Notes: generated by a model from the letters alone, not told the origin. A stretch of 64,000 bases of DNA from an uncultured Acidobacteriota bacterium (GCA_963822445.1 CAWGHO010000001.1:1152001-1216000), one strand, 5' to 3'; shown: positions 174-18,462, numbered from the stretch's first letter. Numbers and translations: made by a program.

Positions 174-184
174 GACGTCACCCC

Positions 185-220: not shown

Positions 221-1615
221 ATGCAGAACGGAACGGCGCGAGTTGCATGCCTTTACGGCATATTGATTCTCTTCGCCCTCGAGTCCCACGCGGCCGGCCC
301 TTTCCGCATCGGCGGCCCGGCCACCATCGATAACGACGCCAGCTGCGACATCTCCCTCCTTCCCGCTGCCACGCTGCTCCTCCCCTACTTCGAGGTCGAC
401 ATCAACTCCTGGGCCGGAACCGGCGAGAACACCATCTTCACGATCACCAACACCGGCCAGCTCCCGCAGGTCGCGCGCGTCACGCTCTGGACCGATCTCT
501 CCTATCCGGTCATCTCCTTCAACATCTACCTGACCGGATACGACGTACAGAGCATCAACCTCTACGACGTCATCGCTCGCGGTGAGATCGCTCCCGACGA
601 CGGCACCGGCGCTGATGTGTCGCCGGTCGGCGAGCTGTCCGGCACCAGTGCCACAAAGGAATTCAACAATCCGCTCGTCGATGAGCTGACCTGCACCGAT
701 TTGGTGGTGCAGATGGCCCCGCCGTACGTCACGCGCATGAAAAGCGCCTTCACCACCGGCAAGGTGCTGACCGCCGGCGAGCTCGGGGCCTGCGCTCAAG
801 GCGGTTCGGCCCATTCGAACGCGGTCGGATACGCAACCGTCGACGTCGTCGGCCGGTGCGGCATCACGATGCCGAACGATCCCGTGTACTTCGCGAACGA
901 CATCCGTTTCGACAACGTGCTCATGGGCGACTTCCACCAGATCAACGGCAACGAAGACTTCGCCCAGGGCGGGACGATGGTGCACATCCGAGCCATCCCC
1001 GAGGGGGGGACGCCGCAGACGCGGGATGACGATCGAGACTTCGAAGTGCACGTCCCCCGGACGTTCTACAGCGCCTATCAGGATCCCGCCCGGCCCACGC
1101 TCGATGCGCGACAACCCCTGCCGTCGCTGTTCGCGGCCCGGTGGATCAGCGGCGGTCCGAGCGGTTTCGAGACCGATTACAAGATCTGGCGCGAGGTCGG
1201 CCGCGAGCCCGACTCCTGCCGCGCGCATGCGTCCAACACCCAGGAGTTCCGGGAAATCGTCCGCTTCGATGAAGAGGAGAATGCCGAGGTCTTTCGATAC
1301 GAGTGCGTCGTGACGTGTCCGGCGTACGTGAGCAGCCTTCCGGCGACGTCGCGGGTCAGTGTCGCGCATGACTCCGACCTGCCCCAGAGCTCCCAGGGCG
1401 TCGTCAGCGGCTGGATGTACCTGAACCTCGACGATCGCGTGCGCGACGACATCGCCAGACAGGCCTGGGTGGTCGTCTCCATGCGCGCCGATGACCGCTT
1501 CTCCACCGACTTCGACGCCCTGGCCCTCGGCAACGGCTGCACGGCCCCTCTCGGGACGAGCGAAGCGAATCACGGCGACTTTCACATCGGTCCGGCGCGC
1601 AACAAGAGGAACTGA
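221..1615 (+). CDS. Secreted paralog family protein, copy 1 (function unknown)
   Basis: 464 aa; signal-peptide-like N-terminus; family motifs NDASCDISLLPAATLLLPYFEVD, RFDEEEN, GWMYLNLD, ALGNGC. Confidence 0.9.
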   Translation: MQNGTARVACLYGILILFALESHAAGPFRIGGPATIDNDASCDISLLPAATLLLPYFEVDINSWAGTGENTIFTITNTGQLPQVARVTLWTDLSYPVISFNIYLTGYDVQSINLYDVIARGEIAPDDGTGADVSPVGELSGTSATKEFNNPLVDELTCTDLVVQMAPPYVTRMKSAFTTGKVLTAGELGACAQGGSAHSNAVGYATVDVVGRCGITMPNDPVYFANDIRFDNVLMGDFHQINGNEDFAQGGTMVHIRAIPEGGTPQTRDDDRDFEVHVPRTFYSAYQDPARPTLDARQPLPSLFAARWISGGPSGFETDYKIWREVGREPDSCRAHASNTQEFREIVRFDEEENAEVFRYECVVTCPAYVSSLPATSRVSVAHDSDLPQSSQGVVSGWMYLNLDDRVRDDIARQAWVVVSMRADDRFSTDFDALALGNGCTAPLGTSEANHGDFHIGPARNKRN

Positions 1616-2967
1616 TGCGCCGCGCGCTGGCAGCGATCGTCCTCTTCACCTCGATCGGTGCCGCGGCATCGACGATCGACAACGACGACAGTTGCGACAT
1701 CTCCCTGCTTCCCGCGGCGACGCTCCTTCTCCCCTATTTCGAGGTGGACATCGAGCCTGCCTACGGCACTACAGACACCACCATCTTCACGGTCACCAAC
1801 GTCAGCCAGTTTCCGCAGATCGCGCGGGTGACGCTCTGGACCGATCTCGCTTATCCCGTCTTCACGTTCAACCTTTATCTGACGGGTTACGACGTGCAGA
1901 GCATCAACCTCTTCGACGTCATCGCCCACGGCAAGGTCGCGCCCGACGACGGCACCGGCGTTGATGTCTCGCCGATCGGCCGGCTCTCCCGCGCAAACGC
2001 GAACCATCCCGCCTACGACAATCCGATCATCGACGAGCAATCGTGTGCCGGCCTGCCCGTCGAGTTGAACGCGGCCATGGTCGCGCGGATGCGGAGCGCG
2101 TTCACGACCGGCAGGGCCTCGGGCGCGAACGCGATGGCCGCGTGCAACACCGCGGGTGAAGTCCACATCAACGCCGCCGGCTACGTGACCATCGACGTGG
2201 TCGGACGCTGCGGCAGCACGATGCCCAACGACCCGGCCTACTACGCCGGCGACATCCGCTTCGACAACGTGTTGATCGGCGATTACCACCAGATCAGGAG
2301 TAGAGAGGATTTCGCCCAGGGCGGGACGATGGTGCACATCCGGGCCATCCCGGAGGGGGGAACGCCTGAGACGCGGGCCGGCGATTCGGACTATCGGGTG
2401 AATCTGCCGCGGACCTTCTACAGCGCGTACCAGGATCCGGCGCGGCCGCTCTTCGACGCTCGCCAGCCGCTTCCCTCGCTTTTCGCTGCGCGCTGGATTG
2501 AAGGGTTCGTCGGCGGTTTCGAGACTTTCTACAAGGTCTGGCGTGAGTCGCGGAACCCGGCCGCATGCCGCGATTACAACATCAACCGCCAGGAGGTGCG
2601 AGACCCGGTCCGCTTCGACGAGGAAGAAAACCCGGAGGCCTACGAGCACTTCTGCTTAGTCCCATGTTTACCGCCCATCTCGCGGATGTCCTCGAGCTCG
2701 CTCATCGGAACTGACCGCGACGACCATCTGCCGGCCAACGCGCAGGGCGCCGTCGCCGGCTGGATGTACCTGAACCTCGACGATCGTCAGAACGACGACG
2801 TCGCCAGGCAGGCCTGGGTGGTCGTCTCCATGCGCGCCGAGGATCGCTTTTCCACCGATTTCGATGCGCTCGCTCTCGGCAACGGCTGCTCTGCCCCGGT
2901 AGGAAGGAGCGAAGCGAATCCCTACGGCACCGTTTCCATCGGCCCCGCGCCGAACAAGAGGAAGTGA
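1615..2967 (+). CDS. Secreted paralog family protein, copy 2
   Basis: 450 aa; TGATG overlap with copy 1; signal peptide MRRALAAIVLF...; same motifs. Confidence 0.9.
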   Translation: MRRALAAIVLFTSIGAAASTIDNDDSCDISLLPAATLLLPYFEVDIEPAYGTTDTTIFTVTNVSQFPQIARVTLWTDLAYPVFTFNLYLTGYDVQSINLFDVIAHGKVAPDDGTGVDVSPIGRLSRANANHPAYDNPIIDEQSCAGLPVELNAAMVARMRSAFTTGRASGANAMAACNTAGEVHINAAGYVTIDVVGRCGSTMPNDPAYYAGDIRFDNVLIGDYHQIRSREDFAQGGTMVHIRAIPEGGTPETRAGDSDYRVNLPRTFYSAYQDPARPLFDARQPLPSLFAARWIEGFVGGFETFYKVWRESRNPAACRDYNINRQEVRDPVRFDEEENPEAYEHFCLVPCLPPISRMSSSSLIGTDRDDHLPANAQGAVAGWMYLNLDDRQNDDVARQAWVVVSMRAEDRFSTDFDALALGNGCSAPVGRSEANPYGTVSIGPAPNKRK

Positions 2968-4346
2968 TGCACCACAAATCGACGATCGTCGCCCTGCTCC
3001 TGTTCGCGTTCGCGCGCATCGCCTTCGCCGACGGTCCGTTCCGCGTCGGTGGTCCGGCCACCATCGACAACGACGCCAGCTGCGACATCTCCCTGCTCCC
3101 GGCGGCCACACTGCTCCTGCCGTATTTCGAAGTCGACCTCAACTCGCGTGCCGAGAGAGCTGAGACCACGATCTTCACCATCACCAATACCAGCCAGGTC
3201 CCGCAGATCGCGCGGGTCACGCTGTGGACGGATCTCGCCTATCCCGTCATCACCTTCAACATCTATCTGACCGGCTATGACGTGCAGAGCATCAATCTCT
3301 ACGACGTCATCCGCCGTGGCGAAGTCGCGCCGGATGACGGCACGGGTTTCGACCGCTCGCCGGTGGGAGAGTTGTCAGGAACGACTCCGACCACTGACTT
3401 TGACAACCCGCTCATCGACGAGCAAACCTGTGTGAATCTGCCGGTCAAGCTGCCGGCCGCTCTCACGACGCGGATGCAGAGCGCCTTCACTACCGGCCGG
3501 GTGACCGGCGCCGACGGTTTGTCCGCGTGCGCGACCGCCGGCGGAACGCATCCGACCGCCGTCGGCTACGCGACGATCGACGTCGTCGGCCGGTGCGACA
3601 GCACCATGCCCAGCAGTCTCGCCTACTTCGCCAGCGACATCCGCTACGAAAACGTGCTGATGGGCGATTACCACCAGATCAACGGCGACGAGGACTTCGC
3701 CCAGGGCGGCACGATGGTCCACATCCGGGCGATTCCGGAGGGCGGCACGCCGCAGACGCGCGACGAGGCACCCGAGTTTCGAGTGAACCTGCCGCGTACG
3801 TTCTACGGCCGGTATCAGCATCCCGACCGGCCCAAACTCGACGCGCGACAGCCGCTGCCGTCGCTCTTCGCGGCACGGTGGATCGAAGGCGGCGCGGGTG
3901 GCTTCGAGACCTTCTACAAGGTCTGGCGGGAGTCGCGGAACCCGGCCGCATGCGGCAACTACAAAGCAAACGACCAGGTCGTGCGGGATGGCGTCCGCTT
4001 CGACGAGGAAGAAAACCCAATGACTTATGACCGCTATTGCTACATCACGTGTCCTTGGTGGGTCCCGCGGATGCCATCCGCGTCGCTGGTCGACGTATCC
4101 CGGGACGACGATCTGCCTACGAACACACAGGGCGCCGTCGCCGGCTGGATGTACCTCAACCTCGATGGTGAGGACGACGAGATCGCCGGACAGGCCTGGG
4201 TGGTCGTCTCCATGCGCTCCGAGGATCGCTTCTCCACGGACTTCGATGCGCTCGCTCTCGGGAACGGTTGCTCCGCGCCGGCGGGCCTGAGCGAAGCGGA
4301 CTACGGCGACTTTCCCATCGGCCCGGCGCCGAACAGGAGGAAGTGA
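2967..4346 (+). CDS. Secreted paralog family protein, copy 3
   Basis: ATG at 2967 overlaps the TGA of copy 2; signal peptide MHHKSTIVALLLFAF; same motifs. Confidence 0.9.
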   Translation: MHHKSTIVALLLFAFARIAFADGPFRVGGPATIDNDASCDISLLPAATLLLPYFEVDLNSRAERAETTIFTITNTSQVPQIARVTLWTDLAYPVITFNIYLTGYDVQSINLYDVIRRGEVAPDDGTGFDRSPVGELSGTTPTTDFDNPLIDEQTCVNLPVKLPAALTTRMQSAFTTGRVTGADGLSACATAGGTHPTAVGYATIDVVGRCDSTMPSSLAYFASDIRYENVLMGDYHQINGDEDFAQGGTMVHIRAIPEGGTPQTRDEAPEFRVNLPRTFYGRYQHPDRPKLDARQPLPSLFAARWIEGGAGGFETFYKVWRESRNPAACGNYKANDQVVRDGVRFDEEENPMTYDRYCYITCPWWVPRMPSASLVDVSRDDDLPTNTQGAVAGWMYLNLDGEDDEIAGQAWVVVSMRSEDRFSTDFDALALGNGCSAPAGLSEADYGDFPIGPAPNRRK

Positions 4347-5731
4347 TGCACCACAAATCGACGATCGTCGCCCTGCTCCTGTTCGCGTTCGCGCGCATCG
4401 CCTTCGCGGACGGTCCGTTCCGCGTTGGCGGTCCGGCCACCATCGATAACGACGCCAGCTGCGACATCTCCCTCCTGCCTGCGGCCACGCTCCTGCTGCC
4501 GTACTTCGAAGTCGACATCACCTCTGCCGCCGGCACGGGCGAGACCACGATCTTCACGATCACCAATGTCAGCCAGGTCCCCCAGATCGCGCGGGTCACG
4601 CTGTGGACCGATCTCGCCTATCCGGTCTTCACCTTCAACATCTACCTGACCGGCTATGACGTGCAGAGCATCAATCTCTACGACGTCATCCGCCGTGGCG
4701 AAGTCGCGCCGGATGACGGCACCGGTTTCGACCGCTCGCCGGTGGGAGAGTTGTCCGGAACGACAGCGACCACGGACTTCGACAACCCGCTCATCGACGA
4801 GGGAACCTGTGTGAATCTGCCGGTCAAACTGCCGGCCGCTCTCACAACCCGGATGCAGAGCGCCTTCACCACCGGCCGCGTGACGGGCGTCGACGGTTTG
4901 TCCGCGTGCTCGACCGCCGGCGGAACGCATCACAACGCCGTTGGTTACGCGACGATCGACGTCGTCGGCCGGTGCGACAGCACCATGCCCAGCAGCCTCG
5001 CCTACTTCGCCAGCGACATCCGCTACGAGAACGTGCTCATGGGCGATTACCACCAGATCAACGGCGACGAGGACTTCGCCCAGGGCGGCACGATGGTCCA
5101 CATCCGCGCCATTCCGGAGGGGGGCACGCCGCAGACACGCGATGACGAACCGGCGTACCGGGTCAACCTGCCGCGCACGTTTTACGGGGCGTATCAGCAT
5201 CCCGACCGCCCCACGCTCGACGCGCGTCAGCCGCTGCCGTCTCTTTTCGCAGCCCGCTGGGTCAGCGGCGGCGCCTCGGGATTCGAGACCTACTTCAAGA
5301 TCTGGCGCGAGGGACGCGGCAGACTCGAGTCCTGTGCGGCTTACAAGACGAACGCGTTCGCCGCCCAGGATTCAGTGCGGTTTGACGAGGAGGAGAATCC
5401 AGAGGCGTCGAATAACTACTGCTTTCCGCCGTACTACTGCTTTGTCCCGCTATTCAATCCGACTTCGCTCATCGATAGCGAGAGCGACGACTTCCCGCCG
5501 AATACCCAGGGCGCCATCGGCGGCTGGATGTATCTGAACCTCGACGATCATCAAGTCGACGGCGACGCCCGCCAGGCCTGGGTGGTCATCTCCATGCGCG
5601 CCGAGGATCGCTTCTCCACCGACTTCGATGCTCTTGCTCTCGGGAACGGCTGCTCAGCGCCGGTGGGCATCAGCGAAGCGAAAGGCGGCGACCTTCCCAT
5701 CGGCCCGGCGCCGAACAAGAGGCAGCCATGA
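4346..5731 (+). CDS. Secreted paralog family protein, copy 4
   Basis: ATG at 4346 (TGATG) after AGGAGG; N-terminal two-thirds nearly identical to copy 3. Confidence 0.9.
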   Translation: MHHKSTIVALLLFAFARIAFADGPFRVGGPATIDNDASCDISLLPAATLLLPYFEVDITSAAGTGETTIFTITNVSQVPQIARVTLWTDLAYPVFTFNIYLTGYDVQSINLYDVIRRGEVAPDDGTGFDRSPVGELSGTTATTDFDNPLIDEGTCVNLPVKLPAALTTRMQSAFTTGRVTGVDGLSACSTAGGTHHNAVGYATIDVVGRCDSTMPSSLAYFASDIRYENVLMGDYHQINGDEDFAQGGTMVHIRAIPEGGTPQTRDDEPAYRVNLPRTFYGAYQHPDRPTLDARQPLPSLFAARWVSGGASGFETYFKIWREGRGRLESCAAYKTNAFAAQDSVRFDEEENPEASNNYCFPPYYCFVPLFNPTSLIDSESDDFPPNTQGAIGGWMYLNLDDHQVDGDARQAWVVISMRAEDRFSTDFDALALGNGCSAPVGISEAKGGDLPIGPAPNKRQP

Positions 5732-6954
5732 GAATGGCGCTCGCTGCCATGTTCCTGCTCGCGATCGGAGCCACCGCGCAGCCGGTGACGAACAACGACG
5801 CCAGTTGCGACATCTCCGTCGCCCCGGCGGCCACGTTGCTGCTGCTCCTCTTCGAGGTGAATCTCACCGCTCCCGCGGGGACCGGCGAGACGACGATCTT
5901 CACGGTCACGAACACAGGGAAATCGCCGCAGATCGCGCGGGTCACGTTGTGGACTGACCTCGCCTACCCGGTCTTCACCTTCAACATCCCGCTCGCCGGT
6001 TACGAGGCGCAGAGCATCAACCTCTTCGACGTCCTCGGTCGTGGCGAGATTCGCGGCCGCGCAGGTTCCTGCGCGAATTTCACCCCGCGGCTGGATCCAC
6101 CGGTTCGCACCCGGATGCAGCGGGCGTTCACCAGGGGCACAGTCAACGGCCTTCCGCCTTTGCCCGACTGCCCCGCCGTTGGCGCGCGGCACGCCAATGC
6201 CATCGGGTACGCGACGATCGACGTCGTCGGTGATTGCGACTCGTCGATGCCCACCGATCGTGAGTACTTCTCCAACGACATCCGCTTCGACAACGTTCTC
6301 CTCGGCGACTACCAGCAGATCAACGGCGACGAGGATTTCGCGCAGGGAACACCGATGGTGCACATCCGGGCCATTCCGGAAGTGATGGCGCCGCGCACGT
6401 TTTACGGGCTGTATCAGCACCCCGCCCGTCCGTCGTTCGACGCGCGGCAGCCACTGCCCTCTTTGTTCGCGGCGAGGTGGATCGACGGGCCGGGCGTGGA
6501 GACGCACTACAAGATCTGGCGCGAGTCTCTCGACGACTTCCTCGCATGTGCCGGCTATGCGCAAAACTTCCGGCCGGTCAGGGAAGTGGTTCGCTTCGAT
6601 GAAGACGAGAACGTCGAGACCACCGCATCGGACTATCTTTTCCTCGGCCCCTCCACCGATGTCTCCCTCCGGGCGACGTCCGTGGTCGACGCCGCGGCCC
6701 ATCACAACTTCCCCGATAACAGCGACGGAGCCGTCGGAGGGTGGATGTACTTCAACCTCGACGGCCTCAATCGGGTTACGCCCCATCCTTCCCAGGGCTG
6801 GGTGACGATCTCCATGCGCGCGCAAAACCGGTTCTCCATCGACTTTGACGCGGCGTATCTCGGCAACGGATGCAGCGCGCCGGTGGACATCAGCGAGGCC
6901 ACCGCCTGGGGAGGGCCTCCCATCGGCCCGGCGCCGAACAAGAGGCAGCATTGA
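5728..6954 (+). CDS. Secreted paralog family protein, copy 5 (shorter, lacks two loops)
   Basis: 408 aa; ATGA overlap; same motifs; lacks the APDDGTG...DNP and GGT...N insertions. Confidence 0.9.
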   Translation: MRMALAAMFLLAIGATAQPVTNNDASCDISVAPAATLLLLLFEVNLTAPAGTGETTIFTVTNTGKSPQIARVTLWTDLAYPVFTFNIPLAGYEAQSINLFDVLGRGEIRGRAGSCANFTPRLDPPVRTRMQRAFTRGTVNGLPPLPDCPAVGARHANAIGYATIDVVGDCDSSMPTDREYFSNDIRFDNVLLGDYQQINGDEDFAQGTPMVHIRAIPEVMAPRTFYGLYQHPARPSFDARQPLPSLFAARWIDGPGVETHYKIWRESLDDFLACAGYAQNFRPVREVVRFDEDENVETTASDYLFLGPSTDVSLRATSVVDAAAHHNFPDNSDGAVGGWMYFNLDGLNRVTPHPSQGWVTISMRAQNRFSIDFDAAYLGNGCSAPVDISEATAWGGPPIGPAPNKRQH

Positions 6955-8216
6955 AGCCGGCGCTCGCCGCCGTGATGCTGCTTGCCTTCGCGGCCACCGC
7001 CCAACCCGTGACGAACAACGACGCCAGTTGCGACATCTCCGTCGCCCCGGCGGCCACGTTGCTGCTGCCCTTTTTCGAAGTAAATCTCACCGTTCCCGCC
7101 GGGACCGGCGAGACGACGATCTTCACCGTCACGAACACAGGGAAATCGCCGCAGATCGCGCGGGTAACGCTATGGACCGACCTGGCCTACCCGGTCTTTA
7201 CCTTCAACATTCCTCTCGCCGGTTACGAGGCGCAGAGCATCAACCTCTTCGATGTCCTCGGTCGTGGCGCGATTCGCGGCGGCTCGGAATCATGCGGAGG
7301 TTCCCTGCGACGGTTGGATCCACCGGTCCTCGCCCGGATGCAGCGGGCGTTCACCACGGGCAAAGTCAACGGCCTTCCGTCTTTACCCGACTGTCCCTTC
7401 GTCGGTATGCGGCACGCAAATGCCATCGGGTACGCGACCATCGACGTCGTCGGTGATTGCGACTCGTCGTTGCCCACCGACGGCGACTACTTCTCGAACG
7501 ACATCCGCTTCGACAACGTGCTCCTCGGCGACTACCAGCAGGTCAAGGGCGACGAAGATTTCGCGCAGGGCGGAACGATGGTGCATATCCGCGCGATCCC
7601 CGAGGGAGGTACCGTGCAAAGCCGCGCCGGCGATCCCAGATTCGCGGTGAATGCACCGCGCACCTTTTACAACGTCTACCAGCATCCCGCCCGTCCGCGG
7701 TTCGACGCCCGTCAAGCCTTGCCCTCGCTGTTCGCGGCGAGGTGGATCGAAGGAGACCGGAGCGGTTTCGAAACGCACTACAAGATCTGGCGCGAGTCTC
7801 GTGACAACCACATCTCCTGCGTGGCTTATGCGCGGAACTACAGGCCGGTCCTGGAAACGGTGCGCTTCGATGAAGAGGAAAACTTCGAAACGATGGCACC
7901 TGAGATCCTCGTCCCCGGCGCCCCCTATGAGCTCTACCTTCCCGCGGCGTCCATCACGGACATCGCGGCGAACAAAGACTTCCCACTCAACACCATGGGG
8001 GCGATCGCCGGGTGGATGTATCTCAACCTCGACGACCTGGATCGCGACAGCCATGCCTCCCAGGGCTGGGTTTCCGTCTCCATGCGCGCGGAGGATCGAT
8101 ACTCCACGGACATGGACGCGGCGTATCTCGGCAATGGCTGCAGCGCACCGGTGGATACCAGCGAGGCGACTCTCTGGGGGCCAGCCATCGGGCCGGCGCC
8201 GAACACCCGTAAGTAA
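6951..8216 (+). CDS. Secreted paralog family protein, copy 6
   Basis: Probable TTG start at 6951 overlapping the copy 5 stop (MKPALAAVMLLAFAATAQP); N-terminal half close to copy 5. Confidence 0.88.
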   Translation: MKPALAAVMLLAFAATAQPVTNNDASCDISVAPAATLLLPFFEVNLTVPAGTGETTIFTVTNTGKSPQIARVTLWTDLAYPVFTFNIPLAGYEAQSINLFDVLGRGAIRGGSESCGGSLRRLDPPVLARMQRAFTTGKVNGLPSLPDCPFVGMRHANAIGYATIDVVGDCDSSLPTDGDYFSNDIRFDNVLLGDYQQVKGDEDFAQGGTMVHIRAIPEGGTVQSRAGDPRFAVNAPRTFYNVYQHPARPRFDARQALPSLFAARWIEGDRSGFETHYKIWRESRDNHISCVAYARNYRPVLETVRFDEEENFETMAPEILVPGAPYELYLPAASITDIAANKDFPLNTMGAIAGWMYLNLDDLDRDSHASQGWVSVSMRAEDRYSTDMDAAYLGNGCSAPVDTSEATLWGPAIGPAPNTRK

Positions 8217-8235
8217 CAATTTCGAAAAACCGCCC

Positions 8236-8265
8236 TTGACTGTGATGCTGTAGCAGCATTAAGTT
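8236..8265 (+). promoter_or_regulatory. Sigma70-like promoter with the same operator, upstream of copy 7
   Basis: TTGACT (8236-8241), ATGCTG-TAG-CAGCAT (8245-8259), TAAGTT (8260-8265). Confidence 0.7.
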
Positions 8266-10978: not shown

Positions 10979-11009
10979 TTTCTTGACATTCCTGCGCTCG
11001 GGGCGGACC

Positions 11010-11027
11010 ATGTTAAAAATTTGACAT
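11010..11027. promoter_or_regulatory. Putative BlaI-family operator overlapping the repressor start codon
   Basis: ATGTTA-AAAATT-TGACAT; TTGACA at 10983-10988 upstream; a perfect second copy at 12863-12880. Confidence 0.6.
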
Positions 11028-11415: not shown

Positions 11416-12835
11416 TTCTGAAGATCACGCTGGTCCTGCTCGCGGCGCTCGTTGCGTCCGCGTTGTTGCGCCGCGCCGCGGCGGCGACGCGTCACGCGGT
11501 GCTGGCGGCGGGGCAAATCGCGGCGCTTTGCTTGCCGCTGCTCACCTTCATCGTTCCGCCGGTTACGGTTTCTGCCCCCGGTGTAGTGTGGGCCTCCGGC
11601 CTACCTCTCGTTCCCCCGCCCCAGGGTAGGCCGGAGGCCCACACTACACGCGCGATCCGGGTGACAGACCTTTGGGGCTCCTCGGCATCCTCGCCATCGC
11701 GCTGCTTCGCATCACGAGCTACCTGCGCGCGGCGGCCGTCGTTCGCCGCGCCGAATCGTTCGGCAACGTGTTGCTCAGCGATGAAGTCGATCAGCCGATG
11801 ACCTTCTTCACGCGCATCATCCTTCCGCGCAGCGCGAGCTCCTGGACGGACGAGCGGCTCCGCGCCGTGCTCCTTCACGAAGGCGCGCACGTTGCGCGGC
11901 ATGACACGTTCTTCGGCATGGTCAGCGATGCGCTCTGCGCGATTTACTGGTTCCATCCGCTGGCCTGGCTGACCGCGCGGCGCGCGCGGCTCGAGCGCGA
12001 GCGCGCTTGCGATGACGTCGTGCTCTCGCAGGGCGTGGGGCGCTTCGATTACGCCGCGGCACTGCTCGATGTCGCGCGGACCGTTCGACGCCGTCACGCC
12101 ACCGCGGCCATCGCCATGGCTGAGCGTCCGCATCTCGAACAGCGCGTGCGGGCGATCCTCGACTCGGCGACGAATCGCCGCGCGACCCGCGCCGCGCGCA
12201 CCGCCGTCTTCGTCACCGTTTTCGCGACCGCGCCGTTGCTCGCCGCGCTGACCACGATCTCCATTCCGCTTCCGCGCTCCGGCGAGCCCGATCTGCTCAA
12301 CGATGCCGTCACCTCTCCGTTCAGCGAGCGCATCGGCGCGCCGTTGGTGAGTGTGTCCGCGAGCGGGCCCGATGCGGCGTTCATCGAGACGATGCAGAAG
12401 GTGGCGACCATCGCGCCGCGGACCTCGATCGACTTCGTCGCCGATCGCGCGCGATGGGCGCTGGCGCAGGTGAATGACGGTGAGCTCGTGACGCCGCTGA
12501 TCGACGCGCTCGACCACAGCGACTGGCGCGTCCGCGCCTACGCCTCCTGGTGCCTCGGCCTCAGCGCGGACCGCCGGGCCACGGACCCGCTGGTGGCGAT
12601 GCTCGAGGATCCCGTCTGGCGCGTGCGCGCATCGGCCGCGGACGGTCTTGCCCGCCTCGCCGATCCCGCAGCCTCCGCCGCCATGCGCCGCGCGCTCAGC
12701 GACGATGCCTGGCAGGTGCGCATGCCGGCGGTGCAGTACTTCGCCGCCATCGGTGGCAGCCGTGAATTGTTCGAGACCATGCGGCGCGACCGGCACATCG
12801 CCGTGTGCATGACCGCCGAGGAGGCTTTGCGATGA
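11412..12835 (+). CDS. BlaR1-like M56 metallopeptidase with C-terminal HEAT repeats (frameshift near 11675)
   Basis: Two overlapping ORFs (11412-11801, 11672-12835) join into TM helices + VLLHEGAHVARHD...YWFHPLAW...RERACDD, then D..WRVRA.AA..L HEAT-like repeats. Confidence 0.85.
11581..11649. repeat. Perfect 25-bp inverted repeat (REP-like) inside the M56 coding region
   Basis: GTGTAGTGTGGGCCTCCGGCCTACC (11581-11605) and its exact reverse complement (11625-11649). Confidence 0.85.
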
Positions 12836-14334
12836 AACGGCGTTCCCTTTTTTTGGCTCTGCATGTCACTTTTTTGACATCAACCCTTTCCGCGCAACTC
12901 CCCGAGCTCGACACGTACATCGAGAACGCCCGCAAGCAGTGGGAGTGTCCCGGCATCGCCGTGGCCGTGGTCAGGGACGGCAAGGTTCTGATGACGAAAG
13001 GCTACGGCGTCCGCACGCTCGGCAGGCCGGAGCTCGTCGACGAGAACACGATGTTCGACACGGCGTCGCTGTCGAAGTCCTTCACCGCTGCCGCGATCGC
13101 CACGCTCGTCGACCAGGGAAAAATGCGCTGGGACGATCCCGTGCGAAAGCATCTGCCCACGCTCGAGTTTCCCGATGCCTATCGCAGCGCGAACGTCACC
13201 GTCCGCGACCTCCTCGCCCATCGCATCGGTCTCGAGCCGGCGAATTTCATGATGCGCATGACGAACTATCCGACCGAGGAGGTGCTGCGGCGGGTGCGGT
13301 TCCTCGAGGAGCGCGATCCGTTCCGCAGCACGTTCACCTACTTCAACATCGGTTACGCGATCGCCGGTGAAGCCGCCGCAGCGGCCGCAAAGATGTCCTT
13401 CGCGGATCTGGTCCGCACGAGTCTCGTCGAGCCGCTGGGCATGCGCGACACGACCGTCGCCGTCGATCACGCGCGCGCGTCGAATCACGCTTCATCGCAT
13501 GCGCGGATCGACGGAGTGCATCAGCCCATTCGCACGCGCAAGCGGATGAACATTCAGGGCGCGAACGCAGTGAACTCCACGGCCAAAGACATGGCCAGAT
13601 GGCTGCTCTTCAACCTCGGCGACGGGACGTGGGAAGGAAAAAAGATCCTGACGCCGGAGGCGCTCGCCGAGATGCATTCGCCGCACTCGATCATCCCCAC
13701 CACCCCGGCCATGCGCGCCGCGCGCGGCGTTCACTTTTTCGGCGGGTACGGTCTGGGATGGCAAGTCATGGACTATCGCGGCCACAAGATGCTCTGGCAC
13801 AGCGGCAACGCCGACTGCATGCCCGTGTACATGGCCATCCTGCCGAACGAGAAGATCGGCGTGCTGGTGATGACGAACAGCTGGGAAGCGGGAACGCTGC
13901 ACGGCATGATCGCCGGCCGCATCCTCGACACGCTCCTCGGCGACGTGCCGCTGAAGGATTCTGCGGCCGAAGGCCTGGAGGGATTCCGCAACGCGGCGAA
14001 GCGGGCTGTCGAGGAACGCGAGGCAGTCGAGAAAGCGCGCATCACCGGCACGAAACCCTCGCGGCCGCTCGATGCCTACGCCGGGACTTACGTCGACACC
14101 ATGCATGGCGACATGGTCGTCAAGCATGAAAACGGACGGCTGACGCTGACGTTCGGCGGCGGCGAGCAGGCCGATCTCGAGCACTGGCACCACGACGTCT
14201 TCAGCGTCCGCTGGCACGACCGCGCCTACGAGTGGGCGGACACGTTCATCGCCTTCGCACTGGACGCGTCAGGGACGCCGAAGAGGTTCGAGATGAAGTT
14301 GTATCGGGACCTGATCGAGGCGGTACGGCGTTGA
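12832..14334 (+). CDS. Secreted serine hydrolase, beta-lactamase/class C-like, with a DUF3471-like C-terminus
   Basis: ATGA overlap at 12832; signal peptide; SLSK (SxxK), YFN and WHSG motifs; LDAYAGTY C-terminal domain. Confidence 0.9.
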   Translation: MKRRSLFLALHVTFLTSTLSAQLPELDTYIENARKQWECPGIAVAVVRDGKVLMTKGYGVRTLGRPELVDENTMFDTASLSKSFTAAAIATLVDQGKMRWDDPVRKHLPTLEFPDAYRSANVTVRDLLAHRIGLEPANFMMRMTNYPTEEVLRRVRFLEERDPFRSTFTYFNIGYAIAGEAAAAAAKMSFADLVRTSLVEPLGMRDTTVAVDHARASNHASSHARIDGVHQPIRTRKRMNIQGANAVNSTAKDMARWLLFNLGDGTWEGKKILTPEALAEMHSPHSIIPTTPAMRAARGVHFFGGYGLGWQVMDYRGHKMLWHSGNADCMPVYMAILPNEKIGVLVMTNSWEAGTLHGMIAGRILDTLLGDVPLKDSAAEGLEGFRNAAKRAVEEREAVEKARITGTKPSRPLDAYAGTYVDTMHGDMVVKHENGRLTLTFGGGEQADLEHWHHDVFSVRWHDRAYEWADTFIAFALDASGTPKRFEMKLYRDLIEAVRR

Positions 14335-14359
14335 CAAAAATGCTGATACGGCATAGTTT
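14331..14359 (+). promoter_or_regulatory. Sigma70-like promoter with the same operator, upstream of copy 9
   Basis: TTGACA (14331-14336), ATGCTG-ATA-CGGCAT (14340-14354), TAGTTT (14354-14359). Confidence 0.7.
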
Positions 14360-14370
14360 AAGGCCTCGAT

Positions 14371-15744
14371 ATGCCCATAAAGCATCGCGGGACTGTCCTC
14401 CTCCTCCTTTGTCTCGCTGCCCCGATGGTCTCCGGCGCCACGCCGACGATCGATAACGACTCCGGCTGCGACATCGCCCTCCTTCCCGCGGCCACGCTGC
14501 TGCTGCCCTATTTCGAAGTGGACATCCACGCGGAGGCGGGCAAAGGCGAGACGACGATCTTCACCATCACCAACGTCACGAACCTTCCCCAGATCGCGCA
14601 TGTCACGTTGTGGACGGACCTCGGCTATCCGGTGATCGACTTCAACCTCTATCTGACCGGCTACGACGTGCAGAGCATCAATCTGTACGACGTGATCGGC
14701 TGGGGCCAGATCGCGCCCGACGACGGCACGGGCATGGATGTATCACCGGTCGGGGATTTGTCGGGGCCTACGCCGACGCTCGACAACGACAATCCGCTCG
14801 CGATCGAGGCGAGCTGTGTCGATCTGCCGGTCGAGCTTCCTCGCCGCTACGCCACCCTCATGCAGCAGGCCTTCACGACGGGGAAAACGACACCCCTGAC
14901 TCTCGGCCAGCCGGTCTGCGAGCGGATCGGAAACGTGCACCTGAATGCGGTCGGCTACGCCACGATCGACGTGGTCAGCAATTGCACAACCGCGCTGCCG
15001 ACGCAGAGCCGATACTTCGAGAACGAGATCCTGTTCGACAACACCCTGGTCGGCGACTACCTGCAGTTCAACGGAACGGACGGCGCGGCCCAGGGCGGAC
15101 CGATGGTTCACATCCGCGCCATTCCGGAAGGTGGAACACCGCGGACGCGAGCGGACAACCCGGCGTATCAGGTCAACTTCCCGCGCACGTTCTACAGCCG
15201 CTATCAACTTCCGTCGAAGCCGCGGTTCGATGCGCGGCAGCCGCTGCCCGCGCTTTTTTCGGCGCGGTTCATCTCCGGTGATTACGGCGAGCGAACCCTT
15301 CTGAAGGTCTGGCGCGAAGGACGCGAGAGCGGCACGGCGTGCGGCGCTTACAAGGTCAACCTGATGAACATGAGCGATGTGGTTGTCTTCGACGAAGAAG
15401 AGAACCCAGCCACCATCGTTCCCGGCCCGTACTTGCCCGGGCCGTCCACGGATCCCCTCCTGCCCGCGACCTCGACGGTCGACGTGGAAGGGCCGGTTCT
15501 CATTTTCTCCTCGCCCGCGTTCCAGAACGACAGCGGCTGGCTTTACCTGAACCTCGACTACGACAGATACGACGCCTTCGCAAGCCAGAACTGGGTCATC
15601 TCATCGATGCGCGCAGGTTCCACCTACACCGTGGACATCCCCGCATCCGCCCTCGGCAACGGATGCTCCGCGCCGATCAGTTACAGCCAAGCCTCCAGCC
15701 GCGACGGCACCGTGATCGGCCCGCCACCGAACACGAGGCCATGA
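14371..15744 (+). CDS. Secreted paralog family protein, copy 9
   Basis: 457 aa; signal peptide; NDSGCDIALLPAATLLLPYFEVD...GWLYLNLD...LGNGC. Confidence 0.9.
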   Translation: MPIKHRGTVLLLLCLAAPMVSGATPTIDNDSGCDIALLPAATLLLPYFEVDIHAEAGKGETTIFTITNVTNLPQIAHVTLWTDLGYPVIDFNLYLTGYDVQSINLYDVIGWGQIAPDDGTGMDVSPVGDLSGPTPTLDNDNPLAIEASCVDLPVELPRRYATLMQQAFTTGKTTPLTLGQPVCERIGNVHLNAVGYATIDVVSNCTTALPTQSRYFENEILFDNTLVGDYLQFNGTDGAAQGGPMVHIRAIPEGGTPRTRADNPAYQVNFPRTFYSRYQLPSKPRFDARQPLPALFSARFISGDYGERTLLKVWREGRESGTACGAYKVNLMNMSDVVVFDEEENPATIVPGPYLPGPSTDPLLPATSTVDVEGPVLIFSSPAFQNDSGWLYLNLDYDRYDAFASQNWVISSMRAGSTYTVDIPASALGNGCSAPISYSQASSRDGTVIGPPPNTRP

Positions 15745-17102
15745 CCATGCGCGCGGCGATCCTCACAATCCTCATCGCCGTTGGCCTTTCCGCCGGCGCC
15801 GCCGATGCCACGATCGACAACGATGCCGGTTGCGACCTCTCGCTCCTTCCCGCAGCGACGCTCCTTCTCCCGTATTTCGAGGTCGATCTCGCCTCCGGGC
15901 CGGGGCTGGGCGAGACCACGATCTTCACCATCACCAACGTCGCGAACATCCCCCAGGCCGCGCGCGTGACCCTGTGGACCGATCTGGGTTACCCCGTCAT
16001 CACCTTCAACATCTATCTCACCGGCTACGACGTGCAGAGCATCAATCTTTACGACTTTTTCGCGCGAGGCCGGATCGCGCCGAACGACGGGACCGGTTCC
16101 GATGTCTCTCCGGTCGGCAAGCTATCCGGCACGTCGCCAACCCGCGACTTCGACAACCCGCTGCTCGCCGAATCCACTTGCGTCGACTTCCCGGTGCAGC
16201 TGCCCCCGAATTACATCTCCCCCATCCAGCGGACATTCACCACAGGCGATGTCGACCCTCTGCCGCATGACCGGACACGGCCGGCATGCCAGAAGATCGG
16301 AGAGCCGCATGTGAACGCGATCGGTTACGCGACCATCGACGTCGTTGGCACGTGCACGTACACGTTGCCTAACGAGCCCCGCTATTTCTCCGACGAGATC
16401 CTGTTCGACAACGTCCTGACCGGCGATTACGTGCAGCTCCGGGGCAAGGACCACGTCGTCCAGGCCGGTCCGCTCGTGCACATCCGGGCCATTCCCGAGG
16501 GGGGCTCGGCGCGGTCGCGGGTGGGCGACGCCAGGTATCTCAGCCGGTTTCCGCGGACGTTCTACAGCCGTTATCAGCATCCCGAGCGCCCGCGCAGCGA
16601 TGCGCGTCAGCCGCTTCCGAGCGTCTTCGTCGCCCGTTTCCTCGGCGGCCGCCGCTCCGAACCTCAGTCCTTCCTGAAAATCTGGCGCGAAGGCCGCGAA
16701 TTCGGCACGGCTTGCAACGTCTACTCCTTGCGAAACCGGACGGCACTCACCGAGGTGATCCGCTTCGACGAGGAAGAGAATCCGTCCACCCACGCACCGT
16801 CGAACAGCCCTTATGACCAGCCCCCCAACGTCCCGTTGGCCTTCATGACCGATGTCAATCGCGGCGGCATCGTCCCGTCGTACTCGGACGAACCCAACGG
16901 CTGGATCTACGTGAACCTCGACGGTTACTACGACAACGACAACATCCCCACGCAGGGCTGGGTCATCTCGTCGATGCACTCGGGCGGATATTCGGTCGAC
17001 CTGCCCGCCACTGCCCTGGGAAATGGATGTTCAGCGCTGGTCGCACCCACCGACCACGACGGCACACCACCCATCGGACCGGCGCCGAACGTGAGGCGCT
17101 GA
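15741..17102 (+). CDS. Secreted paralog family protein, copy 10
   Basis: ATGA overlap at 15741 (alternative ATG at 15747); signal peptide MRAAILTILIAVG; same motifs. Confidence 0.9.
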   Translation: MTMRAAILTILIAVGLSAGAADATIDNDAGCDLSLLPAATLLLPYFEVDLASGPGLGETTIFTITNVANIPQAARVTLWTDLGYPVITFNIYLTGYDVQSINLYDFFARGRIAPNDGTGSDVSPVGKLSGTSPTRDFDNPLLAESTCVDFPVQLPPNYISPIQRTFTTGDVDPLPHDRTRPACQKIGEPHVNAIGYATIDVVGTCTYTLPNEPRYFSDEILFDNVLTGDYVQLRGKDHVVQAGPLVHIRAIPEGGSARSRVGDARYLSRFPRTFYSRYQHPERPRSDARQPLPSVFVARFLGGRRSEPQSFLKIWREGREFGTACNVYSLRNRTALTEVIRFDEEENPSTHAPSNSPYDQPPNVPLAFMTDVNRGGIVPSYSDEPNGWIYVNLDGYYDNDNIPTQGWVISSMHSGGYSVDLPATALGNGCSALVAPTDHDGTPPIGPAPNVRR

Positions 17103-17105
17103 GGC

Positions 17106-18446
17106 ATGCGTATCTTTGTTCTTCTTCTGCTGACCGCCGTCACGTTGTCCGCAGGTGCATCGAAGGTCAACAACGACGCCACCTGCGACATCGCCCAACT
17201 CCCTGCCGCAACGCTGTTGCTGCCGTACTTCGAAGTCGACCTCAGCTCGGGGCCGGGAGCCGGCGAGACGACGATCTTCACCATCACCAACGTCACGAAC
17301 CTCCCGCAGATCGCCCATGTCACGTTGTGGACGGATCTCGGGTATCCAGTGATCGACGTCAACATCTACCTGACCGGTTACGACGTGCAGAGCATCAATC
17401 TCTACGACCTGTTGAAGTTCGGCTGGGTCGCGGCGCCGGACGGAACGGGTTCGGACGTGTCGCCGGTTGGGAGATTGTCGGGAATCCCGGACAGGAGCGA
17501 CTTCGATAACCTGAACGCCGATGAGTCGACGTGCATCGACCTGCCCGTGCAACTGCCTCGCGTCTATGTCGACCGGATGCAGCAGGCCTTTACCACCGGC
17601 AACGCCGGTCCGGCGGGCAAGTTCCGCTCCTGCCAGAAAATCGGCAAGCCCCATCGCAACGCGGTCGGATATGTGACGATCGACGTCGTCAGCATCTGCA
17701 GCACCACGATGCCGATCGACCAGCCCTACTTCACCAGGGAGATCCTGTTCGACAACGTGCTCACCGGCGATTACGTGCAGTTCAACGGCACGACAAAGAC
17801 CGCGCAGGGCGGGCCACTCGTTCACATCCGGGCGATTCCCGAGGGAGGAACGCCTGGCTCGCGGCGCGTGCCGGAATACAAGGTCCATCTGCCCCGGACG
17901 TTCTACAGCCGCTACCAGCCTGCGTCGCAGCCCCGTTTCGACGCGCGTCAGCCTCTCCCCTCCGTGTTTGCAGCGCGATACATCTCCGATGCCGGTCAAC
18001 GGACGTTCCTGAAGATGTGGCGGGAAGGGAGCGAGGTCGGTACCGCATGCGAGGCTTACTCGCGGAACGAGCGGTACGTCGCCGATGTGGTGCGCTTCGA
18101 TGAAGAGGAAAACGCGGAAGGCGTGTTCGTCTTCATCAACGCCCAACCACATGTCGCGCTCTTTCCGTTTCTTCCGCTGACCTCGATTCACGACATCGAT
18201 GATGGCGGCGTGTTCCCCGACAGTCCCGGCGGGGACGGCGGCTGGCTCTACCTGAACATGGACTACGACAACCGCGACGACTTCGCCGGCCAGGCCTGGG
18301 TGATCTCCTCGATGCGCGCCGGCAATGGCTTCTCCGTGGACATGCCCGCAACACCTCTCGGCAACGGCTGCTCGGCGCCGGTCGACCTCTCCGAAGGCTC
18401 ATCGGGCCTCGCGACGATCGGCCCCGCGCCGAACATCCAGCCCTGA
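17106..18446 (+). CDS. Secreted paralog family protein, copy 11
   Basis: 446 aa; signal peptide; same motifs. Confidence 0.9.
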   Translation: MRIFVLLLLTAVTLSAGASKVNNDATCDIAQLPAATLLLPYFEVDLSSGPGAGETTIFTITNVTNLPQIAHVTLWTDLGYPVIDVNIYLTGYDVQSINLYDLLKFGWVAAPDGTGSDVSPVGRLSGIPDRSDFDNLNADESTCIDLPVQLPRVYVDRMQQAFTTGNAGPAGKFRSCQKIGKPHRNAVGYVTIDVVSICSTTMPIDQPYFTREILFDNVLTGDYVQFNGTTKTAQGGPLVHIRAIPEGGTPGSRRVPEYKVHLPRTFYSRYQPASQPRFDARQPLPSVFAARYISDAGQRTFLKMWREGSEVGTACEAYSRNERYVADVVRFDEEENAEGVFVFINAQPHVALFPFLPLTSIHDIDDGGVFPDSPGGDGGWLYLNMDYDNRDDFAGQAWVISSMRAGNGFSVDMPATPLGNGCSAPVDLSEGSSGLATIGPAPNIQP

Positions 18447-18462
18447 GAGTACGATTCGGACC

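What the first reader, a model, noticed from the sequence alone, without database searches (positions are those of the whole stretch)
1283..18180. Hypervariable loop directly after the invariant FDEE/DEN motif, Cys-paired in copies 1-4
Seen: the ~18 residues after FDE(E/D)EN differ almost completely between copies: AEVFRYECVVTCPAYVSS, PEAYEHFCLVPCLPPISR, PMTYDRYCYITCPWWVPR, PEASNNYCFPPYYCFVPL, VETTASDYLFLGPSTDVS, FETMAPEILVPGAPYELY, LETLEDPPLSNPPSQKDPR, PETISPHTGTPPGDVTPR, PATIVPGPYLPGPSTDPL, PSTHAPSNSPYDQPPNVP, AEGVFVFINAQPHVALFPF. This holds even for copies 3 and 4, whose N-terminal parts are nearly identical. Copies 1-4 carry an aromatic-rich Cx3C or Cx5C loop; the others are Pro-rich. Inference: an exposed specificity loop on a constant scaffold (ligand binding, or phage/predator evasion).
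Basis: partly seen in the sequence, partly recalled or inferred. Interest (0 to 1): 0.75.

Follow-up and report, generated by a model that had tools for sequence, protein, structure and literature searches.

The report
Paralog-specific loop in secreted protein array
Eleven neighbouring genes encode versions of an unstudied secreted protein that differ most in one loop beside an invariant acidic motif; the differences look old and copy-specific, so they probably give each copy its own specificity and do not reflect ongoing hypervariation.

Summary
All 11 loop strings are correct, and the 18 residues after FDE(E/D)EN are the most variable stretch of the protein (18% mean pairwise identity against 59% elsewhere). 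The loop is not isolated: it is the centre of a ~70-residue variable block (copy 1 aa ~326-396).

The contrast between copies 3 and 4 comes from a mosaic history. Their flanks were homogenised, while synonymous sites in the block are saturated, even inside the invariant motif. Copy 4's block is 84% identical to a protein from another contig whose scaffold is only 80% identical, so the block is copy-specific but conserved between likely orthologs. I found no reverse transcriptase, template repeat or donor cassette, and no dN/dS clearly above 1.

The family is large (1804 clusters at 50% identity, Acidobacteriota/Thermoanaerobaculia). It has no match in Pfam, NCBIfam, PDB or BFVD, although its predicted fold is confident (pTM 0.90). 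A complex prediction supports dimerisation through a conserved interface that contains FDEEEN. The loop leaves that interface as a low-confidence coil.

Best reading: an old, copy-specific specificity element on a dimeric scaffold of unknown function. Evasion of phages or predators is not supported.

The parts
221..1615 (+). Copy 1 (464 aa, signal peptide). Motif at nt 1265-1282. Variable segment from motif to GW at nt 1283-1408 (loop AEVFRYECVVTCPAYVSS).
1615..2967 (+). Copy 2 (450 aa). Its start overlaps the stop of copy 1. Variable segment nt 2632-2757.
2967..4346 (+). Copy 3 (459 aa). Variable segment nt 4017-4142. The block that diverges from copy 4 is nt 3933-4127.
4346..5731 (+). Copy 4 (461 aa). 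Variable segment nt 5399-5521 (Cx5C loop). The block that diverges from copy 3 is nt 5312-5506. This block is 84% identical to P0042.
5728..6954 (+). Copy 5 (408 aa). Variable segment nt 6613-6738. Lacks two segments and has LLLLLF in place of LLLPYF.
6951..8216 (+). Copy 6 (start TTG 6951 or ATG 6975). Variable segment nt 7884-8009.
8370..9701 (+). Copy 7 (443 aa). Variable segment nt 9405-9533. Lacks the IGPAPN tail.
9698..10978 (+). Copy 8 (GTG start, 426 aa). Variable segment nt 10673-10798. Lacks the IGPAPN tail.
14371..15744 (+). Copy 9 (457 aa). Variable segment nt 15406-15534. Modelled at pLDDT 90.2. Chain 1 of the complex prediction.
15741..17102 (+). Copy 10 (453 aa). Variable segment nt 16782-16898. 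Chain 2 of the complex prediction.
17106..18446 (+). Copy 11 (446 aa). Variable segment nt 18114-18239 (hydrophobic loop AEGVFVFINAQPHVALFPF). The region search of the protein database with its block found only the protein itself.
183..208 (+). TTGAC followed by the palindrome ATGCTGTAACAGCAT (nt 194-208), upstream of copy 1. Candidate promoter/operator of the sub-operon of copies 1-6.
8235..8259 (+). TTGAC followed by the palindrome ATGCTGTAGCAGCAT (nt 8245-8259), upstream of copy 7.
14329..14354 (+). TTGAC followed by the near-palindrome ATGCTGATACGGCAT (nt 14340-14354), upstream of copy 9.
11026..14334 (+). Insert between copies 8 and 9: BlaI-type repressor, BlaR1/M56-HEAT protein (in two overlapping frames), and a serine hydrolase of the beta-lactamase family with DUF3471. 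Not part of the family.

Best explanation
The loops are the most diverged part of a ~70-residue, copy-specific block (copy 1 aa ~326-396). The block holds a pre-motif segment, the invariant RFDEEEN, the loop, the LPATS anchor and a second variable stretch.

The block lies in 11 tandem genes that are translationally coupled. The genes encode a secreted, probably disulfide-bonded, mostly beta protein from a large uncharacterised acidobacterial family.

The differences are old. The 11 copies belong to five lineages that are interleaved with proteins from other genomes. Where a likely ortholog is available, the block is as conserved as the scaffold. Among neighbouring copies the scaffold on either side of the block is homogenised by gene conversion and the block is not. 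This produces the striking picture of 'identical protein, unrelated loop'. No active diversification machinery is involved.

Mechanistically, the domain is predicted to dimerise. Natural two-domain fusions of it exist. The predicted interface is large and conserved and contains the N-terminal NDxxCD, TGYD, H247, FDEEEN, GW, LGNGC and the C-terminal IGPAPN tail. The loop leaves this interface at its rim as a Pro/Cys/Ile/Val-rich coil that is poor in charged residues.

I infer that the loop, together with the rest of the block, tunes what each homo- or heterodimer binds or acts on. The array would then be a set of non-redundant specificities.

Shown: the sequences, the variability ranking, the mosaic history, ortholog conservation for copy 4 and partly copy 3, and the absence of DGR or cassette features.
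Predicted only: the fold, the coil state of the loop and the dimer.
Inferred: the specificity role. The ligand is unknown.
For: Variability ranking.

Mosaic history of copies 3 and 4:
- The divergent block (alignment columns 331-401) has 48% nt differences against 11% outside it. Chi-square is 169 against a permuted maximum of 17.9.
- Third-position differences are 43/70 in the block, 58/276 N-terminal and 13/52 C-terminal. Within RFDEEEN, 6/8 third positions differ and 0/16 first or second positions differ.
- pS is 0.26 and 0.28 in the flanks and 0.77-1.27 in the block.
- Copies 2 and 3 reach 94% nt identity at columns 320-340 against 74% overall.
- Copies 5 and 6 show the same kind of block, 37% v 15%.

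Incongruent histories:
- N part: W3-W4 91%, W3-P0041 84%, W4-P0042 80%.
- Block: W3-W4 45%, W4-P0042 84%, W3-P0041 66%.

Family-wide pattern:
- Among pairs with scaffold identity >=0.70, the 14 same-contig pairs have mean loop identity 0.25 (maximum 0.42). The 194 different-contig pairs have mean 0.47 (maximum 0.89). Mann-Whitney p = 1.4e-5.
- Loop classes recur, for example PETLAPDIVVSPPIVNAPT at 63-89% identity between proteins.
- A Cys pair occurs in 71 of 253 loops.
- Loops are enriched in Pro 2.4x and Cys 2.2x and depleted in D, N, Q, K and R.

Five lineages: the common ancestor of the 11 copies holds 71 of 179 units.

Structure: in the model with pLDDT 90.2 and pTM 0.90, the loop is coil and residues 351-360 have pLDDT 67, the lowest internal block.

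Dimer:
- ipSAE is 0.86 in all three runs. The best of 3 controls is 0.00.
- That mark was reached by 116 of 157 solved complexes and 2 of 215 mismatched pairs.
- The runs agree in >=92% of contacts and the partner pLDDT is >=79.
- My own alignments were used, so these counts hold only roughly.
- The interface lists F340 and E342-P346.
- Interface positions are more conserved than the others (1.19 v 1.95 bits, p = 1e-8).

Fusions: 24 of 260 proteins carry two full domains. In 43 proteins the GNGC of domain 1 lies 16-69 residues before the CD of domain 2, with a mode of 18. The I-x-P-x-N tail then runs straight into N-D-D-S-C-D. This agrees with the predicted contact between the tail and the partner's N-terminus.

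Coupled genes: starts overlap stops.
Against: - Only one clear ortholog-like block (copy 4) and one moderate one (copy 3) were found. The blocks of copies 1 and 11 have no close relative in the protein database. Copy 11 against P0051 shows 82% scaffold identity but 16% loop identity, so fast replacement does occur.
- The pre-motif segment is almost as variable as the loop, so the loop alone may not be special.
- dS is saturated, so neither positive selection nor neutrality can be excluded.
- I could not obtain model coordinates. Exposure and the distance from the loop to the interface are inferred from pLDDT, DSSP and the contact list.
- The two alignments given to the complex prediction hold the same 86 sequences. 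The result therefore speaks for dimerisation of the family and not for the particular pair of copies 9 and 10.
- Same-contig membership was inferred from equal contig lengths. Eight of the 14 same-contig pairs come from this window.
- No function or ligand is known.
Confidence: 0.55

Rival explanations
1. The loop is a weakly constrained surface loop or spacer. It drifts quickly by substitutions and indels and carries no specificity. The contrast with the scaffold comes only from strong constraint and gene conversion elsewhere.
For: - The loop is coil and the lowest-confidence internal stretch of both models.
- Its length ranges from 8 to 83 residues. L001 copies have loops about 10 residues shorter.
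- It is Pro-rich.
- dN/dS is 0.36-1.35, with nothing clearly above 1.
- Two neighbouring segments are nearly as variable.
- Copy 11 v P0051 has 16% loop identity at 82% scaffold identity.
Against: - The loop is conserved at 15 of 20 positions between copy 4 and P0042. It is 63-89% identical within several loop classes.
- Cys pairs recur in 71 of 253 loops.
- The loop is depleted in charged and polar residues, unlike a typical disordered linker.
- The median length is held at 22 residues.
- Same-contig copies never share a loop, while different-contig proteins often do.
Confidence: 0.25
2. The loop is under ongoing diversifying selection. Under this reading it is a surface epitope or receptor site that escapes phages, predators or competitors.
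For: - It is the most variable segment in all three alignments.
- The block escapes the gene conversion that homogenises its flanks. Selection against loss of diversity could produce that.
- The blocks of copies 1 and 11 have no close relative in the database.
Against: - No RT was found among 69 ORFs of 129 aa or more. There is no template or donor repeat in the window and no frameshift relation between loops.
- Synonymous sites in the block are saturated too, so the divergence reflects age and not excess dN.
- The block of copy 4 is as conserved as the scaffold against P0042.
- The paralog lineages are ancient.
- There is no evidence that the protein is surface-anchored.
Confidence: 0.08
3. 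The block is a pairing code. It decides which paralog dimerises with which, and has no role in binding an external ligand.
For: - The loop starts at the rim of the predicted interface.
- The genes are translationally coupled.
- Two-domain fusions always join two different subtypes, a short-loop domain and an AWGD-type domain.
Against: - Loop residues 347-365 of copy 9 are not among the confident contacts, although the tool states that unnamed residues are merely uncertain.
- The interface residues that are listed are the invariant ones, which would allow promiscuous pairing.
Confidence: 0.1

Closest known systems
Tandem multigene families under concerted evolution that keep a protected variable region (general pattern, recalled from knowledge and not from a call)
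   Same: The scaffold is homogenised between neighbouring copies while an internal block keeps each copy's identity.
   Different: The protein family, its fold and its function are unknown. No silent donor cassettes or switching machinery were found.
Variable proteins of diversity-generating retroelements (DGR)
   Same: A short, highly variable stretch on a constant secreted scaffold.
   Different: There is no reverse transcriptase in the 69 ORFs scanned and no template repeat. The variation is between old paralogs and not within one locus. The variable stretch is internal.
TM1070 / ASRAH beta-sandwich small-molecule-binding domains (PMC2739507; passages around 'TM1070' read)
   Same: That paper compares the ASRAH topology with CBM4-2.
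   Different: The match covers only about a fifth of the query (TMq 0.2) and lies above the E 1e-3 line. It is not among the matches listed (ranks to 50) for the better model. There is no sequence similarity.
Loop-based recognition on beta-sandwich scaffolds, such as CDR loops of immunoglobulins and lectin loops (recalled)
   Same: A constant beta scaffold, a predicted dimer, and variable loops next to the dimer interface.
   Different: There is no evidence of an Ig or lectin fold. Diversity is encoded as about 11 fixed genes, and no ligand is known.

Membership tests
Any curated family in Pfam-A, NCBIfam, PADLOC or PHROGs | Score above the model's cut-off | tested here: not met
   Pfam: 6 of the 11 copies were scanned. 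The only row is UPF0149 at 14.7 bits, below its cut-off of 25. NCBIfam: 0 hits for 6 copies. PADLOC and PHROGs: 0 hits for 3 copies each.
Any protein with a solved structure | Sequence or fold match | tested here: not met
   A profile of 72 sequences against PDB chains gave 0 hits at E<=10. Foldseek against PDB gave no match at E<=1e-3 for either model. BFVD gave none either.
DGR variable protein | Reverse transcriptase gene nearby | tested here: not met
   69 ORFs of 129 aa or more between nt 11026 and 64000 were scanned against Pfam. No RT family was found.
DGR variable protein | Template repeat matching the variable region | tested here: not met
   blastn-short of the 11 variable segments against the window found only matches of 12-28 nt at E>=0.006. 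The few that fall in another copy lie at the shared LPATS or 3' end.
DGR variable protein | Differences confined to adenine positions of the template | not testable with these tools
   No template was found to compare with.
Cassette-based antigenic or phase variation | Silent donor copies of the variable segment | tested here: not met
   There are no extra copies of any loop DNA in the 64-kb window. The rest of the genome was not available.
Polymorphic toxin with immunity gene | Variable C-terminal toxin domain followed by a small immunity gene | tested here: not met
   The variable block is internal and is followed by about 70 conserved residues. Within the sub-operons neighbouring genes overlap or lie within 3 nt of each other, so there is no room for an intervening ORF.
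ASRAH / TM1070-like beta-sandwich | Significant fold match | tested here: inconclusive
   1nc7 at E 7e-3, TMt 0.70-0.74, TMq 0.2 with model 1. It is absent from the matches listed (ranks to 50) for model 2.
ASRAH / TM1070-like beta-sandwich | Conserved His and Cys ligand residues (H25, C29 of TM1070, per PMC2739507) | not tested
   No residue-level structural alignment was available.
PNGase F-like two-jelly-roll enzymes | Fold match | tested here: not met
   1pgs, 1pnf and 1png at E 2e-2, TM 0.16-0.24.

The most novel reading that the evidence does not exclude
This would be a protein family with a previously unseen fold that forms homo- and heterodimers through an invariant interface. Each subunit would contribute its own copy-specific loop or block to a composite site beside that interface. 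An array of 11 co-regulated genes would then encode a combinatorial, germline-fixed recognition repertoire in Acidobacteriota. Gene conversion would keep the repertoire uniform in the scaffold, and selection against converting the block would keep it diverse.
Probability: 0.15. Interest if true: 0.8.

Novelty: new variant of a known kind. Interest (0 to 1): 0.55.

Why it matters
The family is large: 1804 clusters at 50% identity, and at least 3419 proteins among the 8000 candidates scored. It is widespread in soil and sediment Acidobacteriota, has no annotation, and has a confident predicted fold with no solved or viral-model counterpart. This array gives a concrete handle on it: an invariant predicted dimer interface, a copy-specific block, and a shared upstream palindrome. 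It is also a clean example of how partial gene conversion can imitate a hypervariable loop. Readers of raw sequence should check synonymous sites before inferring diversifying selection. If the loops do set specificity, these arrays would show how such bacteria widen a binding or enzymatic repertoire.

Tried and rejected
Tested and rejected as explanations:
- DGR mechanism. No RT was found in 69 ORFs and no template repeat.
- Silent cassettes. No extra copies of any loop DNA in the window.
- Compensated frameshifts as the source of unrelated loop sequences. The best local nt alignments of loop DNA score 26 or less against a shuffled maximum of 25, and they sit at the shared LPATS anchor. The other frames of the copy 11 loop resemble nothing.

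Searches that found nothing usable:
- Family identification through Pfam, NCBIfam, PADLOC and PHROGs, PDB sequences, Foldseek against PDB twice and BFVD once, and the ESM Atlas twice. The Atlas returned only unnamed acidobacterial clusters and a 0.77 'S-layer Slr4' lead, which is below any useful level.
- The genome-contig scan gave only 2 loci and did not include the window's own genome. Orthologous DNA for codon models was therefore not available.
- Region searches with the blocks of copies 11 and 1 found only the query protein itself and one 45% hit.
- The promoter/terminator consensus scan was uninformative: 1 promoter-like site against 2.3 expected, and 17 terminator-like sites against 11.7 expected.
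- Literature searches found no description of the family: 'Thermoanaerobaculia, paralogs, secreted' (0 papers); 'Thermoanaerobaculia, hypothetical protein, tandem' (1 unrelated paper, listing only); 'Acidobacteria, paralogous, hypervariable, secreted' (1 paper on polymorphic toxins, listing only).

Limits of the analysis:
- dN/dS (Nei-Gojobori) on the paralogs is saturated and decides nothing.
- Model coordinates are not returned by the tools, so solvent exposure could not be computed.
Strain-level variation in reads stayed unchecked.


Full report
**What is there**

The window (GC about 64%) carries 11 plus-strand paralogous genes between nt 221 and 18446.

They fall into three tightly packed groups:
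- Copies 1-6. Each start overlaps the previous stop. For copy 6 this holds with the TTG start at nt 6951; with the ATG at 6975 there is a 20-nt gap.
- Copies 7-8, with a 4-nt overlap.
- Copies 9-11, with a 4-nt overlap and then a 3-nt gap.

Copies 8 and 9 are separated by three unrelated genes: a BlaI-type repressor, a BlaR1/M56-HEAT protein and a beta-lactamase-family hydrolase.

Each product is 408-464 aa. It has an N-terminal hydrophobic signal-like segment (my reading of the sequence; modelled as a helix) and six invariant cysteines. The family motifs are NDxSCD, LPAATLLLPYFEVD, TLWTD, LTGYD, GYATIDVV, HIRAI, PRTFY, RQPLP, KIWRE, RFDEEEN, GWxYLN and LGNGC. Most copies also have a C-terminal IGPAPN tail.

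**Check of the observation**

All 11 loop strings in the finding are exact. The motif F-D-E-(E/D)-E-N is invariant at F, D, the last E and N in 11, 72 and 86 sequences.

Mean pairwise identity among the 11 copies:

| Segment | Identity |
|---|---|
| Loop (18 residues after the motif) | 18.4% (range 0-38%) |
| Loop without the semi-conserved P-E-T start | 14% |
| Rest of the protein | 58.9% |
| aa 327-344 | 28.9% |
| aa 378-395 | 28.2% |
| aa 182-199 | 30.3% |
| Shuffled loops | 7.8% |

By column entropy the loop is the top 18-residue window in all three sets:
- 11 copies: 2.39 v 2.07 bits
- 72 sequences: 2.57 v 2.48
- 179 domain units from the wider family: 3.13 v 2.92

The observation therefore holds and generalises. 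The loop is the summit of a variable region spanning about aa 326-396 of copy 1. That region is interrupted by two conserved islands, RFDEEEN and LPATS.

Two small corrections:
- 'The others are Pro-rich' is true for copies 7-10 (5-6 Pro) but not for copy 5 (1) or copy 11 (2).
- A Cys pair in this loop is common in the family, at 71 of 253 loops. In this window it is a shared trait of one lineage, copies 1-4 plus P0041 and P0042. These loops also share the first Cys position and aromatic positions.

**Why copies 3 and 4 look as they do**

The nucleotide data say otherwise.
- A maximum chi-square scan places a sharply bounded divergent block at alignment columns 331-401 (copy 3 nt 3933-4127, copy 4 nt 5312-5506). 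It has 48% nt differences against 11% outside. Chi-square is 169 and the permuted maximum is 17.9.
- Third-codon positions differ at 43/70 sites in the block, against 58/276 and 13/52 in the flanks.
- In the invariant RFDEEEN codons, 6/8 third positions differ and 0/16 first or second positions differ.
- Nei-Gojobori pS is 0.26 and 0.28 in the flanks and 0.77-1.27 in the block.

The block is therefore much older than the flanks. The flanks were homogenised by gene conversion, or equivalently the block was retained or imported.

Other tracts point the same way. Copies 2 and 3 reach 94% nt identity at columns 320-340 against 74% overall. Copies 5 and 6 have a similar block, 37% v 15%.

Identity tables show the incongruence directly:

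| Pair | N part | Block |
|---|---|---|
| W3-W4 | 91% | 45% |
| W3-P0041 | 84% | 66% |
| W4-P0042 | 80% | 84% |

The block of copy 4, loop included (15 of 20 residues), is thus at least as conserved as the scaffold when compared with a protein from another contig.

**Is this general in the family?**

Loop identity rises with scaffold identity across the 179 units. It is 0.12-0.15 at 40-60% scaffold identity and 0.50 at 80-90%. The pre-motif segment behaves alike. Distinct loop classes recur across proteins.

For pairs with scaffold identity >=0.70:
- 14 same-contig pairs: mean loop identity 0.25, none above 0.42.
- 194 different-contig pairs: mean 0.47, up to 0.89.
- Mann-Whitney p = 1.4e-5.

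A tree built on scaffold columns puts the 11 copies in five lineages: {1-4 with P0042}, {5, 6}, {7}, {8} and {9-11 with P0051}. Their common ancestor holds 71 of 179 units, so the paralogs are old.

Results against a simple 'conserved in orthologs' rule:
- Copy 11 and P0051 share 82% of the scaffold but only 16% of the loop.
- Region searches with the blocks of copies 11 and 1 found only the query protein itself and one 45% hit.

**No diversification machinery**

- No reverse transcriptase was found in 69 ORFs of 129 aa or more that were scanned.
- No loop-like template or donor exists elsewhere in the window.
- There is no frame-shifted similarity between loops.
- dN/dS in the loop ranges from 0.36 to 1.35 with saturated dS. 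It shows neither positive selection nor neutrality.

**What the protein is**

The profile of the 11 copies finds at least 3419 proteins among 8000 scored candidates. Where named, they are 'hypothetical protein' from Thermoanaerobaculia, Vicinamibacterales or Acidobacteriota. It also finds 1804 cluster representatives at E<=1e-3, of which 659 are at E<=1e-30.

Nothing known matches:
- Pfam, NCBIfam, PADLOC and PHROGs give nothing above threshold.
- PDB sequences give nothing.
- Two AlphaFold2 models (copy 1: pLDDT 82, pTM 0.84; copy 9: pLDDT 90.2, pTM 0.90) are mostly beta with a few helices. They have no Foldseek match at E<=1e-3 in PDB or BFVD.
- The best lead is TM1070, an ASRAH beta-sandwich (PMC2739507, passages read). 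It is weak and was not reproduced with the better model.

Longer relatives fuse the domain to PKD (2 of the 19 long relatives scanned), BACON (1) or Calx-beta (1) modules. This fits an extracellular role.

A related MAG contig (L001) has the array at the same place, followed by the same bPH_2 gene and ABC-F ATPase. Its content differs: two two-domain genes and three single-domain genes.

**Where the loop sits**

In both models the motif ends a beta strand and the next ~20 residues are coil. In the better model residues 351-360 have pLDDT 67, the lowest internal value.

Family-wide, the loop:
- varies in length from 8 to 83 residues, with a median of 22;
- is enriched in Pro (2.4x) and Cys (2.2x) and slightly in Ile and Val;
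- is depleted in D, N, Q, K and R.

This is not the composition of a hydrophilic disordered linker.

A complex prediction of mature copies 9 and 10 supports binding:
- ipSAE is 0.86 in all three runs, and the best of three controls is 0.00.
- The mark was reached by 116 of 157 solved complexes and 2 of 215 mismatched pairs.
- The runs agree in at least 92% of contacts, and the partner pLDDT is at least 79.
- My own alignments were used, so these counts hold only roughly.
- Both alignments contain the same 86 sequences, so I read the result as 'the family dimerises' and not as a specific 9-10 pair.

The confident interface comprises the N-terminal NDxxCD segment, TGYDVQS, residues 224-247 including H247, F340 and E342-P346 (the motif and the first loop residue), GW, the LGNGC region and the C-terminal IGPxPN tail. 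Loop residues 347-365 are not listed, which the tool says leaves them uncertain. Interface positions are more conserved than the others (1.19 v 1.95 bits, p = 1e-8).

Natural two-domain proteins give independent support. There are 24 of 260 by a strict motif count. In 43 proteins the spacer between GNGC of domain 1 and CD of domain 2 is 16-69 residues, most often 18. In the short forms the I-x-P-x-N tail runs straight into N-D-D-S-C-D of the next domain. The predicted contact between the tail and the partner's N-terminus would require exactly that.

**Explanation**

I conclude that the loop is real and is the most variable part of the protein. I rate at 0.55 the reading that it is an old, copy-specific element:
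- it is kept distinct among copies in the same genome;
- it is constrained within lineages;
- it sits next to an invariant dimer interface;
- it most plausibly sets ligand, substrate or partner specificity.

The rivals are a merely weakly constrained loop (0.25), a pairing code (0.10) and ongoing diversifying selection or evasion (0.08). Function and ligand remain unknown.

**Not checked**

- DNA of orthologs was lacking, so codon-site tests and strain-level variation stayed unchecked.

Noticed in passing
window 183-208, 8235-8259, 14329-14354 (+): The palindrome ATGCTG-N3-C(A/G)GCAT, preceded by TTGAC, occurs at exactly three places in the 64 kb. The search lists 5 matches because two of the sites match on both strands; 0.02 are expected by chance. 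Each site lies just upstream of one of the three gene groups of the family (copies 1, 7 and 9). This is a likely shared promoter/operator, and the regulator is unknown. The pattern is absent from L001 and L002.
   Followed up: partly
window 11412-12835 (+): The BlaR1/M56-like gene lies in two overlapping ORFs in different frames (11412-11801 and 11672-12835). Pfam matches only the second half of the M56 profile, in the second ORF. This may be a frameshift, a pseudogene or a sequencing error. The gene sits with a BlaI-type repressor and a beta-lactamase-family/DUF3471 hydrolase in the middle of the array.
   Followed up: partly
window 5728-6954 (+), copy 5: Copy 5 departs from near-invariant features. 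It has LLLLLF in place of LLLPYF and lacks 14 residues after IRAIPE. With copy 6 it also lacks a 29-residue segment after aa ~121. It may be decaying or a divergent subtype.
   Followed up: no
window 19741-21021 (-): An IS110-family transposase sits between the bPH_2 gene pair (18325-19697) and the ABC-F ATPase (21437-23053). In the syntenic contig L001, ORF listing showed no gene of this size between the bPH_2 gene and the ABC-F gene.
   Followed up: partly
L001 1998-6784 (+): Two adjacent genes of about 800 aa each encode two fused domains of the family: a short-loop subtype followed by an AWGD-loop subtype. Such fusions are common among the best database hits. In short-linker forms the C-terminal I-x-P-x-N tail of domain 1 is directly continuous with N-D-D-S-C-D of domain 2.
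   Followed up: yes
window C-terminal codons of copies 1-6 and 9-11, e.g. 1590-1615 and 2945-2967: The conserved C-terminal ...IGPAPNKRK codons contain the AAGAGGA ribosome-binding site of the next gene. This tail is therefore constrained both as protein (predicted interface contact) and as a translation signal. Copies 7 and 8 lack it.
   Followed up: partly
window 48591-54206 (-) and 31971-37466 (-): An 1871-aa histidine kinase with about 14-15 tandem HAMP domains, and an 1831-aa bacterial alpha-2-macroglobulin. They appear unrelated to the finding.
   Followed up: no
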